The notes under the pieces are model-generated. The model did not search any database. It was not told the DNA's origin and saw only the letters and a list, made by a program, of their open reading frames with translations. A DNA stretch of 64,000 nt from Escherichia coli (GTDB lineage Bacteria > Pseudomonadota > Gammaproteobacteria > Enterobacterales > Enterobacteriaceae), in the NCBI RefSeq assembly GCF_009931435.1, contig NZ_CP043414.1. The stretch is one strand, 5' to 3'. The translations under genes were made by a program, and so were the position numbers. This document shows positions 2,866 through 61,593 of the stretch, piece after piece (position 1 is the first letter of the stretch; each line of letters starts with the position of its first letter).

Positions 2866-2985
2866 TTACCGGATGCGATCCGGGCAACAAGTCGGAAACG
2901 ATTTGTAGGCCTGATAAGACGCGACAGCGTCGCATCAGGCATTGATTGCCGGATGCGGCGTATAACGCCTTATCCAGCCTACATT
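2866..2985. repeat. REP/BIME cluster (repetitive extragenic palindromes) downstream of acs
   Basis: gccggatgcggcg...cgccttatccggcctac and gtaggcctgataagacgcg...gcgtcgcatcaggc motifs in inverted copies. Confidence 0.7.
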
Positions 2986-3070: not shown

Positions 3071-5031
<1,961 letters not shown>

Positions 5032-5209
5032 TCTCTCCCCTTCCCCGGTCGTCTGACCGGGGAATACTCTTCCTCTCCAATATGCATCATCTTTTCCCAT
5101 AATATTAAACAAATAAACTCATTAAAAAAATGAGCGATTTTTGACAGTCGTAGAAAATGATAATGCAGAGAATATGCCTTTTCTTTCTTGTTAATTATAA
5201 GGATATTTT

Positions 5210-6502
5210 ATGCGCTATAATGGTTTAAATAATATGTTTTTCCCTCTTTGCCTGATTAACGATAACCACCCTGTCACAAGTCCATCACATACAAAGAAAA
5301 CAGAATCAGATAATTATAGCAAACATCATAAAGACACGTTAATTGACAATAAAGCCCTCTCTCTTTTCAAAATGGATGATCATGAAAAAGTGATAGGCTT
5401 GATTCAGAAAATGAAAAGAACTTATGATACTTTACCATCAGGAAAAATCACTAAAGAAACGGACAGGAAAATTCATAAATATTTTATAGATATAGCTTTA
5501 TACGCAAGTAATAAATATGACGATAGAATTACGAGAAGAGTTTACCTTAATAAAGATAAGGAAGTGTCAATTAAGGTAGTGTATTTTATAAATAATGTCA
5601 CTGTCCATAATAATACTATCGAAATCCCACAGACAGTAAATGGTGGTTACGATTTTTCACACCTTAGCCTGAAAGGTATCAGGATTAAAGATGAAGATTT
5701 ATCCAATTCGGATTTTGCAGGTTGCAGACTACAAAATGCTATTTTCCAGGGCTGTAATATGTATCAAACGAATTTTAATTTTGCCATAATGGAAAAAATA
5801 ATTTTTGATAATTGTATTCTCGATGACTCAAATTTCGCTCAGATAAAAATGACTGACGGAACTCTAAATGCATGCTCCGCTATGCATGTTGAATTCTTCA
5901 ATGCAACAATGATTAGAGCTAAAATTAAAAATACCTTCCTTGACTATTCAAATTTTTATATGGCGTACATGGCTGAGGTGAATCTTTATAAAGTAATAGC
6001 GCCATATGTTAATTTATTTAGAGCCGACCTTAGTTTCTCTAAACTCGATTTAATTAACTTTGAACATGCTAATCTTTCTCGCGTCAACCTGAACAAAGCA
6101 ACCCTCCAGAATATAAACTTAATTAATAGCAAACTCTTTTTTACGCGGCTGACAAATACGTTCCTCGAAATGGTTATATGTACCGATTCTAATATGGCTA
6201 ATGCTAATTTTAATAATGCCAATTTAAGCAATTGCCATTTCAACTGTTCTATTTTAACAAAAGCCTGGATGTTTAATACCCGTTTCTATCGGGTTAATTT
6301 CGATGAGGCTATCGTCCAGGGAATGGGCATATCCATTCTCCGTGGGGAGGATAATATTCCCATTAATAGTGATATCCTGATAACACTACAGCAACTCTTT
6401 GAAGAGGATTGTGCCACTCATACTGGCATGTCACAAACTGAGCATAATATTCAGGAAGTGTCTATGAATACCACTGAAGATACTATGCAATACGCAGATT
6501 GA
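5210..6502 (+). CDS. yjcF: Pentapeptide-repeat protein, 430 aa, AT-rich gene
   Basis: 430 aa; long run of pentapeptide-like repeats (…SNSDFAGCRLQNAIFQGCNMYQTNFNFAIMEKIIFDNCILDDSNFAQ…); position and size match K-12 yjcF; markedly lower GC than neighbours. Confidence 0.8.
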   Translation: MRYNGLNNMFFPLCLINDNHPVTSPSHTKKTESDNYSKHHKDTLIDNKALSLFKMDDHEKVIGLIQKMKRTYDTLPSGKITKETDRKIHKYFIDIALYASNKYDDRITRRVYLNKDKEVSIKVVYFINNVTVHNNTIEIPQTVNGGYDFSHLSLKGIRIKDEDLSNSDFAGCRLQNAIFQGCNMYQTNFNFAIMEKIIFDNCILDDSNFAQIKMTDGTLNACSAMHVEFFNATMIRAKIKNTFLDYSNFYMAYMAEVNLYKVIAPYVNLFRADLSFSKLDLINFEHANLSRVNLNKATLQNINLINSKLFFTRLTNTFLEMVICTDSNMANANFNNANLSNCHFNCSILTKAWMFNTRFYRVNFDEAIVQGMGISILRGEDNIPINSDILITLQQLFEEDCATHTGMSQTEHNIQEVSMNTTEDTMQYAD

Positions 6503-9820: not shown

Positions 9821-10234
9821 AAGAAAACATCCCCTGAGAGTTTAATTTTCGTCAAGATGCGTGGCGGACAATCCCCTGCCAGCGAAACGTTATCTTCCTG
9901 CTCCAGGTTTGCGACAAATTGGTGCGTCGCAAAAACGCAAACGTTTAGCTCCGCGCATACAAAACGGGTGGTAAAAAAAGCAAACGATTATCCGGCGATC
10001 ATAGCGGCTTTTTCAACCGAAGTTTGCTGCTTTTTTCTCTTTTATTGTCTTGACGATGAAAAACCAGGCAATTGATGCGCAAACGTTATCGTCGATGCGC
10101 AAGATTGCAGCGTTATCGAACCGTATACCGTTCAGGATTGCGATAAAAAATCGTCTGAGATGACAAAAATATTGCGGCTAAAAAGTGTACTTTTACACTG
10201 GCGAAGAAACGCCGGTAACATACAATTAAAGCAT

Positions 10235-10375
10235 CAACACCAACCGGAACCTCCACCACGTGCTCGAATGAGGTGTGTTGACGTCGGGGGAAACCCTCCT
10301 GTGTACCAGCGGGATAGAGAGAAAGACAAAGACCGGAAAACAAACTAAAGCGCCCTTGTGGCGCTTTAGTTTTGT
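10235..10375 (+). ncRNA. ryjA: Candidate small RNA at the K-12 ryjA position (placement by synteny only)
   Basis: K-12 carries a ~140-nt sRNA between soxR and ghxP, convergent with soxR. Here a hairpin plus T-run at 10347-10375 could end a plus-strand transcript. Sequence not verified against ryjA. Confidence 0.25.
10347..10367. terminator. Hairpin at soxR 3' end (bidirectional terminator candidate)
   Basis: aaagcgcc-cttgt-ggcgcttt with T-rich flanks on both strands, overlapping the soxR stop codon. Confidence 0.5.
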
Positions 10376-57554: not shown

Positions 57555-57961
57555 AACAATTTCCCTTCATTGAATGAATGGAGATTTACCCAAAAACATT
57601 TCGGGCGGGATCGAGTATACACAACTAAAGCATGCGAATTACGGCGTGGGGAATTAGTGATGGGGTTTTAAGATAATTGGAATGAATATCAAATATAAGT
57701 TTCAACTTATATATAAATAATATTTAAAATCAAAAATTTAAAACAAAATCAAAAATAATTAACCTACGTATTTTCCGAAATCAATCATGATTAAAAATCT
57801 ATTTTAGGATTAACCTCACGGTATGATTTTCGTTAAATCACAGACAAGGGGATTTATCTGATAAAACAATGCCGACTTATAGTCGGCATTGTTATTAAGG
57901 TTATTTAATCAATCCTGCTATGTATTAATTGCCGAATATGATGTACATATCGGCATCGACC

Positions 57962-58040
<79 letters not shown>

Positions 58041-58069: not shown

Positions 58070-59719
58070 TTAACCGCGCCACGCTTTATAGCGGTTAATC
58101 AGACCATTGGTCGAGCTATCGTGGCTGCTGATTTCTTTATCATCTTTCAGCTCTGGCAGAATACGGTTCGCCAGCTGTTTACCCAGCTCCACGCCCCACT
58201 GGTCGAAGGTGAAGATGTTCAGGATCACGCCCTGAGTAAAGATTTTGTGCTCATACAGCGCAATCAACGCCCCCAGGCTGAACGGAGTGATTTCACGCAG
58301 CAGGATGGAGTTGGTTGGGCGATTACCTTCGAACACTTTGAACGGTACCACGTAGTCAAGCGTTGCCGGATCTTTACCCTGATCGCGATATTCCTGCTCA
58401 ACCACTTCGCGGGATTTACCAAACGCCAGCGCTTCGGTCTGAGCGAAGAAGTTAGACAGCAGTTTCTGGTGATGATCAGAGAGCGGGTTATGGGTGATAG
58501 CCGGGGCGATGAAATCGCATGGCACCATCTTCGTACCCTGGTGGATCAGCTGGTAGAACGCGTGCTGACCGTTAGTGCCTGGTTCACCCCAGATAATCGG
58601 GCCAGTCTGGTAATCCACAACGTTACCGTTACGGTCTACATACTTACCATTGGACTCCATATTGCCCTGCTGGAAGTACGCTGCGAAACGGTGCATATAC
58701 TGGTCGTACGGCAGAATCGCTTCAGTTTCCGCGCCAAAGAAATTGTTGTACCAGATGCCGATCAGCGCCAGCAGTACAGGCAGGTTTTTCTCTGCAGGTG
58801 TGGTGGAGAAATGCTTGTCCATCGCGTGTGCGCCGGAAAGCAGTTCAACGAAGTTATCAAAGCCGATGGAGAGAACAATCGACAGGCCAATCGCTGACCA
58901 CAAAGAGTAACGACCGCCGACCCAGTCCCAAAACTCGAACATGTTAGCGGTATCAATACCAAACTCACCAACGGCTTTGGCATTGGTTGAGAGCGCAGCA
59001 AAGTGTTTCGCAACGTGTTGTTCATCACCTGCCGCTTTCAGGAACCAGTCACGCGCGCTATGGGCGTTGGTCATGGTTTCCTGAGTGGTGAAGGTTTTAG
59101 ATGCTACCAGGAACAGCGTGGTTTCCGGGTTCACTTTTTTCAGCACTTCCGCGATGTGAGTTCCATCGACGTTAGAAACAAAGTGCATGTTCAGGTGATT
59201 TTTGTACGGACGCAGTGCTTCGGTCACCATGTACGGGCCGAGGTCAGAACCGCCGATACCGATGTTCACCACGTCGGTGATTGCTTTGCCGGTATAACCC
59301 TTCCACTCACCGGAAATAATCGCTTCCGAGAAGGTTTTCATCTTCTCCAGCACGGCGTTAACATCCGGCATGACATCTTTGCCATCAACCAGAATCGGGG
59401 TATTGCTACGGTTACGCAACGCTACGTGCAGTACGGCGCGGTTTTCAGTGCGGTTGATCTTCTCGCCAGAGAACATCGACTTAATCGCGCCCGCCAGATC
59501 GCACTCTTTCGCCAGATCTTGTAATTTCGCCAGCGTCTCTTCAGTGATGCGGTTTTTGGAGTAATCCACCAGCATCTGATCGTCGAAGGTTGCAGAGAAC
59601 TTAGAAAAACGATCGCCGTCTTTAGCAAAAAGATCGGCGATCGTAACGTCTTTCATTTCATCGAAGTGTTTCTGTAGTGCCTGCCAGGCCGCGGTCTGCG
59701 TTGGATTGATGTTTTTCAT
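58070..59719 (-). CDS. pgi: Glucose-6-phosphate isomerase, 549 aa
   Basis: [58 protein letters not shown]…; track ORF starts 2 codons upstream. Confidence 0.97.
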
Positions 59720-59902
59720 TAGCAATACTCTTCTGATTTTGAGAATTGTGACTTTGGAAGATTGTAGCGCCAGTCACAGAAAAATGTGATGGTTTTAGTG
59801 CCGTTAGCGTAATGTTGAGTGTAAACCCTTAGCGCAGTGAAGCATTTATTAGCTGAACTACTGACCGCCAGGAGTGGATGAAAAATCCGCATGACCCCAT
59901 CG

Positions 59903-59936
59903 TTGACAACCGCCCCGCTCACCCTTTATTTATAAA
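59903..59936 (+). promoter_or_regulatory. lysC promoter candidate
   Basis: ttgaca at 59903-59908 with AT-rich -10 region (tttatttataaat) 17-22 bp downstream, about 310 bp upstream of the lysC ATG. Confidence 0.5.
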
Positions 59937-59944
59937 TGTACTAC

Positions 59945-60235
59945 CTGCGCTAGCGCAGGCCAGAAGAGGCGCGTTGCCCAAGTAACGGTGTTGGAGGAGC
60001 CAGTCCTGTGATAACACCTGAGGGGGTGCATCGCCGAGGTGATTGAACGGCTGGCCACGTTCATCATCGGCTACAGGGGCTGAATCCCCTGGGTTGTCAC
60101 CAGAAGCGTTCGCAGTCGGGCGTTTCGCAAGTGGTGGAGCACTTCTGGGTGAAAATAGTAGCGAAGTATCGCTCTGCGCCCACCCGTCTTCCGCTCTTCC
60201 CTTGTGCCAAGGCTGAAAATGGATCCCCTGACACG
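59945..60235 (+). promoter_or_regulatory. Lysine riboswitch (LYS element / L box) in the lysC leader
   Basis: About 300-nt structured leader with conserved segments as I recall them for the lysC riboswitch (…ccagaagaggcgcgttgcccaagtaacggtgttggaggagccag…ggtgcatcgccgaggtgattgaacggctgg…); immediately upstream of lysC. Confidence 0.8.
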
Positions 60236-60243
60236 AGGTAGTT

Positions 60244-61593
60244 ATGTCTGAAATTGTTGTCTCCAAATTTGGCGGTACCAGCGTAGCTGATTTTGACGCG
60301 ATGAACCGCAGTGCTGATATTGTGCTTTCTGATGCCAACGTACGTTTAGTTGTCCTCTCGGCTTCTGCTGGTATCACTAATCTGCTGGTCGCTTTAGCTG
60401 AAGGACTGGAACCTGGCGAGCGATTCGAAAAACTCGACGCAATCCGCAATATCCAGTTTGCCATTCTGGAACGTCTGCGTTACCCGAACGTTATCCGTGA
60501 AGAGATTGAACGTCTGCTGGAGAACATTACTGTTCTGGCAGAAGCGGCGGCGCTGGCAACGTCTCCGGCGCTGACAGATGAACTGGTCAGCCACGGCGAG
60601 CTGATGTCGACCCTGCTGTTTGTTGAGATCCTGCGCGAACGCGATATTCAGGCACAGTGGTTTGATGTACGTAAAGTGATGCGTACTAATGACCGATTTG
60701 GTCGTGCAGAGCCAGACGTAGCCGCGCTGGCGGAACTGGCTGCGCTGCAGCTGCTCCCGCGCCTCAATGAAGGCTTAGTGATCACCCAAGGATTTATCGG
60801 CAGCGAAAGTAAAGGTCGTACAACGACGCTTGGCCGTGGAGGCAGCGATTATACGGCAGCCTTGCTGGCGGAGGCCTTACACGCATCTCGTGTTGATATC
60901 TGGACCGACGTCCCGGGCATCTACACCACCGATCCACGCGTGGTTTCCGCAGCAAAACGCATTGATGAAATCGCGTTTGCCGAAGCGGCAGAGATGGCAA
61001 CTTTTGGTGCAAAAGTACTGCATCCGGCAACATTGCTACCCGCAGTACGCAGCGATATTCCGGTGTTTGTCGGCTCCAGCAAAGCCCCACGCGCAGGTGG
61101 TACGCTGGTGTGCAATAAAACTGAAAATCCGCCGCTGTTCCGTGCCCTGGCGCTTCGTCGTAATCAGACTCTGCTCACTTTGCACAGCCTGAATATGCTG
61201 CATTCTCGCGGTTTCCTCGCGGAAGTTTTCGGCATTCTCGCGCGGCATAATATCTCGGTGGATTTAATCACCACATCAGAAGTGAGCGTGGCATTAACCC
61301 TTGATACCACCGGTTCCACCTCCACTGGCGATACATTGCTGACGCAATCTCTGCTGATGGAGCTTTCCGCACTGTGCCGGGTAGAAGTGGAAGAAGGCCT
61401 GGCGCTGGTCGCGTTGATTGGCAATGACCTGTCAAAAGCCTGCGGCGTAGGCAAAGAGGTATTCGGCGTACTGGAACCGTTCAACATTCGCATGATTTGT
61501 TACGGCGCATCCAGCCATAACCTGTGCTTCCTGGTGCCCGGCGAAGATGCCGAGCAGGTGGTGCAGAAGCTGCATTTTAATTTGTTTGAGTAA
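60244..61593 (+). CDS. lysC: Lysine-sensitive aspartokinase III, 449 aa
   Basis: MSEIVVSKFGGTSVADFDAMNRSADIVLSDANVRLVVLSASAGITNLLVALAEG…; C-terminal ACT domains. Confidence 0.97.
   Translation: MSEIVVSKFGGTSVADFDAMNRSADIVLSDANVRLVVLSASAGITNLLVALAEGLEPGERFEKLDAIRNIQFAILERLRYPNVIREEIERLLENITVLAEAAALATSPALTDELVSHGELMSTLLFVEILRERDIQAQWFDVRKVMRTNDRFGRAEPDVAALAELAALQLLPRLNEGLVITQGFIGSESKGRTTTLGRGGSDYTAALLAEALHASRVDIWTDVPGIYTTDPRVVSAAKRIDEIAFAEAAEMATFGAKVLHPATLLPAVRSDIPVFVGSSKAPRAGGTLVCNKTENPPLFRALALRRNQTLLTLHSLNMLHSRGFLAEVFGILARHNISVDLITTSEVSVALTLDTTGSTSTGDTLLTQSLLMELSALCRVEVEEGLALVALIGNDLSKACGVGKEVFGVLEPFNIRMICYGASSHNLCFLVPGEDAEQVVQKLHFNLFE

What the first reader, a model, noticed from the sequence alone, without database searches (positions are those of the whole stretch)
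59903..60243. Lysine riboswitch in the lysC leader
The approximately 300-nt untranslated leader between a sigma-70-like promoter and the lysC start codon carries the long structured region characteristic of the lysine riboswitch that controls aspartokinase III. It is a known element, reported because it is the one clear cis-regulatory RNA in the window.
Basis: partly seen in the sequence, partly recalled or inferred. Interest (0 to 1): 0.2.

Follow-up and report, generated by a model that had tools for sequence, protein, structure and literature searches.

The report
Known E. coli lysC lysine riboswitch
This is the well-studied lysine-sensing RNA switch in the leader of the E. coli aspartokinase III (lysC) mRNA, base-for-base identical to the laboratory-strain copy on which the published experiments were done, so it is real but ordinary.

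Summary
Confirmed, and already known. Rfam's Lysine model (RF00168) matches window 59956-60152 (+) full length at 99.5 bits (gathering score 30, E 3e-25). The next gene, 60244-61593, is lysine-sensitive aspartokinase 3 (lysC). The whole pgi-lysC intergenic region (59717-60299) is identical to E. coli K-12 MG1655. RefSeq annotates "riboswitch" at these coordinates, and the leader is at least 99% identical in 5420 of 5426 complete E. coli genomes. Published numbering (G309 = G of the AUG) puts the transcription start at 59938, giving a 306-nt leader. Only 59956-60152 is the aptamer; 60153-60243 is the expression platform. There is no intrinsic terminator. Instead there are three mutually exclusive helices: P1 (59960-66/60142-48), an anti-P1 helix (60127-51/60181-205) and a Shine-Dalgarno sequester (60200-06/60232-38). 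A C-rich stretch with two UCUUCC repeats lies between them. Published work identifies that stretch as the RNase E site and Rho loading site exposed when lysine binds. In 36 Enterobacterales lysC leaders the aptamer helices co-vary and the platform helices stay 96-97% paired. New but minor: a conserved hairpin abutting P1 and a conserved promoter. Interest is low.

The parts
59903..59908 (+). -35 hexamer TTGACA of the lysC promoter
   Evidence: Read from the sequence. At least 90% conserved in 36 Enterobacterales lysC upstream regions. Not called by the consensus scan, because its partner -10 is weak.
59927..59932 (+). Probable -10 hexamer TATTTA (18-nt spacer, 3 of 6 matches to TATAAT)
   Evidence: A conserved 'TAttt' lies 17-18 nt after TTGACA in the footprint alignment. 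Its position fits a TSS at 59938. The assignment is an inference.
59938..59938 (+). Transcription start (+1), derived from published numbering
   Evidence: Ghosh et al. 2024 number from the TSS and place G309 at the AUG. AUG = 60244-60246, so +1 = 59938. The mapping is consistent: published Site1 (nt 250-253) lands on UCUU at 60187-60190.
59944..59959 (+). 5' hairpin (CCUGCG/CGCAGG, 6 bp) directly abutting P1
   Evidence: Predicted in every fold. A hairpin of at least 5 bp occupies the same place in 35 of 36 orthologous leaders, with different sequences.
59956..60152 (+). Lysine riboswitch aptamer (Rfam RF00168). P1 59960-66/60142-48; P2 59971-79/60026-34; P2b 59986-93/60012-19; P3 60038-49/60058-68; P4 60069-79/60086-95; P5 60097-103/60131-37
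   Evidence: cmscan 99.5 bits, E 3e-25, full length. Helix coordinates parsed from that alignment. Pair counts on 36 leaders: 85.3% of cells paired against 41-47% for slid controls, with compensatory changes in P2, P2b, P3 and P4. RefSeq annotates 'riboswitch' at the equivalent coordinates.
59999..60003 (+). L2 loop word GCCAG, kissing partner of L3
   Evidence: Complementary to CUGGC in L3. The words co-vary among genera (GCCG:CGGC, ACCG:CGGU, UCCG:CGGA); 2 of 2000 permutations reach the observed complementarity.
60051..60055 (+). L3 loop word CUGGC, kissing partner of L2
60127..60151 (+). 5' strand of the anti-P1 (antisequester) helix; overlaps the 3' strands of P5 and P1
   Evidence: Present in the unconstrained minimum-free-energy fold of the leader. 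96-97% of cells paired in 36 leaders, against 42-59% for slid controls. Anti-P1 stem described in the literature.
60156..60176 (+). Small hairpin at the tip of the anti-P1 helix (UAG.AGCGA/UCGCU.CUG)
   Evidence: Predicted in all folds. Only 62-63% paired in the MAFFT alignment, in a region with insertions and deletions, so it is weakly supported.
60170..60208 (+). C-rich, G-poor stretch (about 50% C, 17% G) holding two UCUUCC repeats (60187-92 and 60195-200). Published RNase E cleavage region (Site1 = 60187-90) and Rho loading (rut) site
   Evidence: Composition. Site1 = nt 250-253 and rut at about nt 240 in Ghosh et al. 2024. Part of this stretch (60181-60205) is the 3' strand of the anti-P1 helix.
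60200..60206 (+). Anti-SD strand CCUUGUG of the sequester helix; shared with the anti-P1 helix (60201-05)
   Evidence: The local fold of the platform gives this hairpin at -11.0 kcal/mol. 97.2% of cells paired in 36 leaders, and most changes are to wobble pairs.
60232..60238 (+). CACGAGG: 3' strand of the sequester helix, containing the Shine-Dalgarno GAGG (60235-38)
   Evidence: ACACGAGG is nearly invariant in the alignment.
60244..61593 (+). lysC, lysine-sensitive aspartokinase 3. The G of the AUG (60246 = G309) is the published pause and Rho/NusG termination site
   Evidence: ORF. NF006570 at 765 bits. G309.

Best explanation
The 306-nt lysC leader (59938-60243) is a lysine-sensing OFF riboswitch with a composite expression platform. 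Without lysine, the 3' strands of P5 and P1 (60127-51) pair with 60181-60205 to form the anti-P1 helix. That helix buries the C-rich UCUUCC region and ties up the anti-SD strand, so the Shine-Dalgarno sequence is free and lysC is translated. When lysine binds the five-helix junction, P1 (59960-66/60142-48) and P5 are locked and 60181-60205 is released. CCUUGUG (60200-06) then pairs with CACGAGG (60232-38) and blocks ribosome binding. The now single-stranded C-rich stretch serves both as an RNase E cleavage site and as a Rho loading site, and transcription terminates at the start codon (G of AUG, 60246). Shown here: the aptamer match, the helices, their mutual exclusivity and their conservation. 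Taken from the literature on the identical sequence: lysine dependence, RNase E cleavage and Rho termination. Inferred: the exact helix boundaries.
For: RF00168 hit at 99.5 bits, E 3e-25, full length. lysC lies directly downstream. 59717-60299 is identical to MG1655, the template of the published experiments, and RefSeq annotates a riboswitch there. Ghosh et al. 2024 (PMC10946432) describe the ON/OFF model, the anti-P1 stem, RNase E Site1 at nt 250-253, the rut site near nt 240, and lysine-stimulated Rho/NusG termination at G309 (56% with lysine against 31% without). [quoted passage not shown] These positions map onto UCUU at 60187-90 and a 50% C stretch. No intrinsic terminator on the + strand. 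The anti-P1 helix is in the unconstrained MFE fold, and the SD-sequester hairpin is the local MFE at -11 kcal/mol. In 36 Enterobacterales leaders, 85.3% of cells are paired against 41-47% for slid controls, the covariation score is 0.208 against at most 0.085, 31 pairs have changes on both sides, the sequester is 97.2% paired and the anti-P1 helix 96-97% paired. L2-L3 kissing words co-vary. In vivo ensemble mapping detects several conformations of this riboswitch (PMC13271884). The 527-nt intergenic region has 0 differences from MG1655 against 3.2-7.9% in the flanks.
Against: P1, the base of P5, the sequester and most of the anti-P1 helix are nearly invariant, so conservation supports them but true compensatory changes are few. 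A simple equilibrium calculation on the full leader barely separates the two states for SD accessibility: mean unpaired probability is 0.33 with P1 and P5 enforced and 0.44 with anti-P1 enforced. In the predicted anti-P1 helix, Site1 sits in an internal loop rather than in a duplex. The loci were found with a pattern that fixed three aptamer core motifs, so invariance of those motifs is by construction. I could not read Caron et al. 2012, so my helix boundaries may differ from the published drawing. Lysine binding was not tested here.
Confidence: 0.95

Rival explanations
1. A purely translational riboswitch. Lysine only occludes the Shine-Dalgarno sequence, and the fall in mRNA (RNase E decay, Rho termination) is a passive consequence of an untranslated message, not a direct output of the RNA switch.
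For: The SD sequester is the best conserved platform helix (97.2% paired). Ghosh et al. also find indirect, translation-dependent Rho termination inside the ORF, with regulation growing with ORF length. Mutating or inhibiting Rho did not change lysine repression of the endogenous lysC mRNA.
Against: A transcriptional fusion with only one lysC codon is still repressed about 2-fold, and this drops to about 1.4-fold in rne-131 and in rho-R66S. Rho/NusG termination at G309 is stimulated by lysine in vitro without ribosomes. Deleting Site1 raises RNA polymerase occupancy early in the ORF. The C-rich region is part of the anti-P1 helix, so the switch itself controls its exposure.
Confidence: 0.08
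2. A Bacillus-type transcriptional riboswitch. Lysine binding lets an intrinsic terminator hairpin form in the leader and stops RNA polymerase without any protein factor.
For: This is how the lysine riboswitch of B. subtilis lysC works, according to the background given in the papers read. The aptamer class is the same.
Against: No G+C-rich hairpin followed by a T run on the + strand between 59700 and 60320. In vitro transcription gives mostly full-length product with or without lysine unless Rho is added. The platform ends in an SD-sequestering helix.
Confidence: 0.01
3. Not an RNA sensor. The leader is regulated by a leader peptide or only by DNA-binding proteins at the promoter, and the Rfam match is incidental.
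For: A mechanical 57-aa ORF lies in the leader (60043-60216). Promoter-level regulation of lysC exists in addition to the riboswitch. A conserved upstream motif lies at 59878-59892.
Against: E = 3e-25 for a full-length structured match. The helices co-vary. The leader ORFs match no Pfam family and are interrupted by insertions and deletions in other genera. A control construct lacking the riboswitch shows no lysine-dependent repression in reporter assays.
Confidence: 0.01

Closest known systems
E. coli K-12 MG1655 lysC lysine riboswitch (Caron et al. 2012 PNAS; Ghosh et al. 2024 RNA, PMC10946432)
   Same: Same locus and the same sequence: 59717-60299 has no difference from MG1655. Same aptamer, anti-P1 stem, SD sequester, RNase E Site1 and rut region, and G309 site.
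   Different: Nothing in the regulatory region. The host strain is a different E. coli lineage: lysC differs at 43 nucleotides and 5 amino acids, and pgi by 3.8%.
Bacillus subtilis lysC lysine riboswitch (L box / LYS element)
   Same: Same aptamer class (RF00168), same regulated enzyme (aspartokinase), and the same logic of lysine turning expression off.
   Different: The B. subtilis platform is an intrinsic terminator. This one has none and uses SD sequestration plus RNase E and Rho. The aptamer-platform overlap is larger in the E. coli type (PMC13273304).
E. coli thiC and ribB riboswitches (TPP, FMN), which directly modulate Rho loading
   Same: A rut site inside the expression platform is exposed by ligand binding, termination occurs at or near the start codon, and there is also a translational layer.
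   Different: Different ligands and aptamer folds. At lysC the pause at G309 is not lengthened by ligand, and the same region is also an RNase E target.
Orthologous lysC leaders of other Enterobacterales (Serratia, Pantoea, Erwinia, Rahnella, Cedecea and others; loci L007-L122)
   Same: Same promoter -35, 5' hairpin, aptamer, anti-P1 helix, CUCUUCCCUUGUGCC element and ACACGAGG SD.
   Different: The first UCUUCC (Site1) is not conserved. Several genera carry 30-140-nt insertions in the P5 loop. The LysC N-terminus varies in length.

Membership tests
Lysine riboswitch (Rfam RF00168) | Sequence-plus-structure match to the family covariance model above its gathering score | tested here: met
   99.5 bits against a gathering score of 30, E 3.1e-25, model positions 1-182 of 182, not truncated. 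It is the only family found in the region at E up to 1.
Lysine riboswitch (Rfam RF00168) | Five helices (P1-P5) around one junction, supported by base-pair conservation and covariation | tested here: met
   All helices are placed by cmscan. On a MAFFT alignment of 36 leaders (not fitted to the structure), P2 is 87% paired, P2b 88%, P3 72%, P4 100%, and P1 and P5 99.5-100%. P2, P2b, P3 and P4 have pairs changed on both sides. P1 and the base of P5 are invariant, so they are uninformative for covariation.
Lysine riboswitch (Rfam RF00168) | Conserved junction nucleotides (AGAGG, GCCGA, UGUCA, GGAG) | tested here: met
   All are present in the window and aligned to the model consensus. Their invariance among my 36 orthologues is partly by construction, because AGAGGCGC, CGCCGAGG and TGTCAC were the search pattern. 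GGUGGRGC was not in the pattern and is conserved.
Lysine riboswitch (Rfam RF00168) | L2-L3 loop-loop (kissing) tertiary contact | tested here: met
   GCCAG (59999-60003) is complementary to CUGGC (60051-55). The words co-vary across genera, and 2 of 2000 permutations of L3 among species do as well. The outermost pair is mismatched in about 7 of 36 leaders, so support is good but not perfect.
Lysine riboswitch (Rfam RF00168) | Lies in the 5' leader, on the same strand, of a lysine biosynthesis or transport gene | tested here: met
   The aptamer ends 91 nt before the AUG of lysC (NF006570, 765 bits). The same arrangement holds in 35 other Enterobacterales loci.
Lysine riboswitch (Rfam RF00168) | Direct, specific binding of L-lysine that changes the RNA fold and gene expression | not testable with these tools
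   Published for the identical MG1655 sequence: lysine-dependent repression, lysine-stimulated termination in vitro, and no repression in a control construct lacking the riboswitch. Sequence identity is shown.
Translational / dual-acting (RNase E and Rho) expression platform of the E. coli lysC type | Mutually exclusive P1, anti-P1 and SD-sequester helices, and no intrinsic terminator | tested here: met
   The helices share nucleotides: anti-P1 shares 60142-48 with P1 and 60201-05 with the sequester. No terminator. The helices are 96-97% paired in 36 leaders.
Translational / dual-acting (RNase E and Rho) expression platform of the E. coli lysC type | C-rich, G-poor rut and RNase E region inside the switching strand | tested here: met
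   About 50% C and 17% G around nt 245-255 (60177-60200). The UCUUCC repeats are at 60187-92 and 60195-200. Published Site1 (nt 250-253) maps to 60187-90. Cleavage and Rho loading themselves were not testable here.

The most novel reading that the evidence does not exclude
The stem-loop at 59944-59959, which directly abuts P1 and is kept in 35 of 36 Enterobacterales lysC leaders despite unrelated sequences, may be a functional and so far uncharacterised module of this riboswitch. It could be a 5'-terminal hairpin that limits 5'-end-dependent RNase E entry, so that decay depends on the lysine-gated internal site. Or it could be a helix that stacks on P1 and tunes the P1 versus anti-P1 competition. 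I could not read Caron et al. 2012, so it may already have been described.
Probability: 0.3. Interest if true: 0.25.

Novelty: already known. Interest (0 to 1): 0.08.

Why it matters
It matters little as a discovery. This is a benchmark riboswitch, annotated automatically in RefSeq and dissected experimentally on this very sequence. The comparative work adds small points. The whole three-helix platform, the second UCUUCC element and the promoter are conserved across Enterobacterales, which suggests the translation / RNase E / Rho arrangement is ancestral to the order rather than peculiar to E. coli. A conserved hairpin next to P1 deserves a simple mutational test.

Tried and rejected
1. The unconstrained MFE fold of the full leader pairs the extreme 5' end (ACUACCU, 59940-46) with the SD region (AGGUAGU, 60236-42). 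The duplex is strong only in E. coli (-11.2 kcal/mol) and one Pantoea, and weak elsewhere, so I rejected it as a conserved element.
2. Equilibrium unpaired probabilities with P1 or anti-P1 enforced did not cleanly separate SD accessibility (0.33 against 0.44). I did not use them as evidence.
3. The consensus sigma-70 scan did not call the + strand promoter. Phylogenetic footprinting was used instead.
4. Caron et al. 2012 and Rodionov et al. 2003 are not held in the library. Positions were taken from Ghosh et al. 2024.
5. The leader ORFs (57 aa on +; 181 aa and 67 aa on -) have no meaningful Pfam match and were dismissed.
6. The 5' hairpin scores only 56% paired on the MAFFT alignment because loop lengths differ. 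Folding each sequence separately resolved this.
7. The small hairpin at 60156-76 is only 62-63% paired in an indel-rich part of the alignment and is left as weakly supported.

Full report
**Observation.** RF00168 (Lysine riboswitch aptamer) matches window 59956-60152 on the + strand at 99.5 bits (gathering score 30), E = 3.1e-25, covering model positions 1-182 of 182. A permissive rescan of 59717-60320 on both strands returns only this family. The ORF that follows, 60244-61593, matches NCBIfam NF006570 'lysine-sensitive aspartokinase 3' at 765 bits. The divergent gene upstream (58070-59716, - strand) is pgi.

**Identity of the locus.** The 575 bases around the leader are found in 5425 of 5426 complete E. 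coli genomes, at 99% identity or more in 5420, and RefSeq annotates 'riboswitch | lysC' under the match. In a record identical over this query, the riboswitch feature has the same extent as the Rfam hit. Against K-12 MG1655, the whole intergenic region and leader (59717-60299) show no difference. By contrast pgi differs by 3.8%, lysC by 3.2% (43 nucleotides, 5 amino acids) and the downstream region by 7.9%. Under the flanking coding rate about 18 differences would be expected in 527 nt (Poisson P about 1e-8). The published MG1655 experiments therefore apply directly to this sequence.

**Coordinates from the literature.**
- Ghosh et al. 2024 (PMC10946432) number from the transcription start and place G309 at the AUG. 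AUG = 60244-60246, so +1 = 59938 and the leader is 306 nt.
- Their RNase E Site1 (nt 250-253) then falls on UCUU at 60187-60190, the start of the first of two UCUUCC repeats (60187-92, 60195-200).
- Their rut site at about nt 240 falls in a stretch that reaches about 50% C and 17% G. This agreement supports the mapping.

**Promoter.** The consensus scan did not call a + strand promoter. In an alignment of 36 Enterobacterales lysC upstream regions, however, TTGACA (59903-08) is at least 90% conserved. It is followed at 17-18 nt by a conserved TAttt motif (E. coli TATTTA, 59927-32), which fits a start at 59938.

**Anatomy.** Helices taken from the cmscan alignment are P1 59960-66/60142-48, P2 59971-79/60026-34, P2b 59986-93/60012-19, P3 60038-49/60058-68, P4 60069-79/60086-95 and P5 60097-103/60131-37. 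A 6-bp hairpin (59944-59) abuts P1. Downstream of the aptamer there is no intrinsic terminator. Folded alone, the platform forms a hairpin that pairs CCUUGUG (60200-06) with CACGAGG (60232-38) at -11.0 kcal/mol; the latter contains the Shine-Dalgarno GAGG. The unconstrained fold of the whole leader instead contains a long helix between 60127-51 and 60181-205. That helix uses the 3' strands of P5 and P1 on one side and the UCUUCC region plus the anti-SD strand on the other. P1, anti-P1 and the sequester are therefore mutually exclusive, matching the ON/OFF scheme in the literature.

**Comparative test.** A DNA-pattern scan of one genome per species with three aptamer core motifs gave 120 loci. 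In 35 of them, all Enterobacterales, a lysC orthologue with at least 72% amino-acid identity lies directly downstream. The results below come from a plain MAFFT alignment (A1):
- **Lysine-bound (OFF) structure:** 85.3% of cells form standard pairs against 41-47% when partners are slid by 1-3 columns. The covariation score is 0.208 against at most 0.085. 31 pairs have changes on both sides, and 0 of 500 shuffles reach any of the measures.
- **Where the compensatory changes are:** P2, P2b, P3 and P4. P1 and the base of P5 are invariant and 99.5-100% paired.
- **SD sequester:** 97.2% paired, with most changes to wobble pairs.
- **Anti-P1 helices:** 96-97% paired, against 42-59% for slid controls, with mostly one-sided changes.
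- **L2 and L3 loop words:** they co-vary (GCCAG:CUGGC, GCCG:CGGC, ACCG:CGGU, UCCG:CGGA), and 2 of 2000 permutations do as well.
- **5' hairpin:** present in 35 of 36 leaders with unrelated sequences.
- **Caveat:** the three motifs used as the search pattern are invariant by construction.

**Mechanism.** Without lysine, the anti-P1 helix forms, the Shine-Dalgarno sequence is free and the UCUUCC/C-rich region is buried. With lysine, P1 and P5 are stabilised, 60181-205 is released, the anti-SD strand closes on the SD, and the exposed C-rich strand is cut by RNase E and loads Rho. Transcription then terminates at G309 (60246). The RNA architecture is shown here. The following steps come from Ghosh et al. 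2024 and the work they cite:
- Lysine raises Rho/NusG termination in vitro from 31% to 56%.
- A one-codon fusion is repressed about 2-fold, falling to about 1.4-fold in rne-131 and in rho-R66S.
- Deleting Site1 raises polymerase occupancy early in the ORF.

In vivo structure-ensemble mapping also detects several conformations of this riboswitch (PMC13271884). A 2026 covariation study notes that the wide aptamer-platform overlap matches the E. coli lysC variant (PMC13273304).

**Weak points.**
- The platform helices are conserved rather than covarying.
- Equilibrium folding does not separate SD accessibility between the two states (0.33 against 0.44).
- In my anti-P1 model, Site1 sits in an internal loop.
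- Caron et al. 2012 could not be read, so the helix boundaries are mine.
- The 5'-end/SD pairing seen in the MFE fold is not conserved and was rejected.
- ORFs overlapping the leader on either strand have no meaningful family match.

**Verdict.** The element is already known, and its interest lies only in small comparative details.

Noticed in passing
window 59878-59892: ATGAAAAATCCGCAT lies about 46-60 nt upstream of the TSS. It is a dyad with T-N11-A spacing and is conserved (at least 60% per column) in the lysC upstream regions of 36 Enterobacterales. It could be a LysR-type regulator box such as ArgP (name from memory, not tested). It would fit the promoter-level regulation mentioned in the literature.
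   Followed up: partly
window 59717-60243: The whole 527-nt pgi-lysC intergenic region, including the 220 nt upstream of the lysC start site, has no difference from MG1655. The flanks differ by 3.2-7.9% (Poisson P about 1e-8). The constraint therefore extends beyond the riboswitch, presumably to the two divergent promoters.
   Followed up: partly
L002 (E. coli WB61, NZ_CP020025.1) 3512-5354; equivalent to window 60236/60128: A 1843-bp ISEcp1 unit (transposase plus a DUF4942 fragment) is inserted inside the Shine-Dalgarno sequence. The sequence then resumes at the equivalent of 60128, a 109-bp duplication with an N at the junction, so an assembly problem is possible. The lysC copy downstream keeps the platform but lacks the 5' half of the aptamer, so it should escape lysine control.
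   Followed up: partly
A1 columns 201-342 (P5 loop); L056 1270-1733, L010 3544-3996, also L076, L028, L084, L075, L008: Several genera carry insertions of 30-140 nt in the P5 loop of the aptamer. A 92-nt piece of the Cedecea insert matches an unannotated dispersed repeat (median 6 copies per E. coli genome, about 80% identity). It looks like an ERIC/IRU element (name from memory). The aptamer evidently tolerates a mobile repeat in this loop.
   Followed up: partly
A1 columns 414-435; window 60187-60200: Of the two UCUUCC repeats, the first (published RNase E Site1, 60187-92) varies among genera (GUAUACC, GUUUACC, UUUCUG). The second, within CUCUUCCCUUGUGCC (60195-200), is nearly invariant. That second copy is also part of both the anti-P1 and sequester helices.
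   Followed up: no
L033 7045-7090 and other loci in A1 columns 540-600: In many genera LysC has an N-terminal extension of variable length. For example, in L033 MINAVSPLGVTKPIVAKFGG stands where E. coli has MSEIVVSKFGG. The ATG stays a few nt after the conserved ACACGAGG while the conserved KFGG core begins later. The start codon seems anchored by the riboswitch platform rather than by the protein.
   Followed up: no
window 10233-10373 (+): Full-length match to the sraL Hfq-binding sRNA (RF01408, 153 bits).
   Followed up: no
window 2908-2979, 46336-46406, 57966-58037 (all -) and 57751-57900 (+): Three matches to naRNA4 (RF02564), a REP-type repeat family. The last lies just beyond the 3' end of pgi. 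There is also one match to STnc430 (RF02053) between yjbE and pgi.
   Followed up: no
E. coli genome search: One of the 5426 places matching the leader lies on a plasmid, and one of 5426 complete genomes has no match at all. Neither was examined.
   Followed up: no
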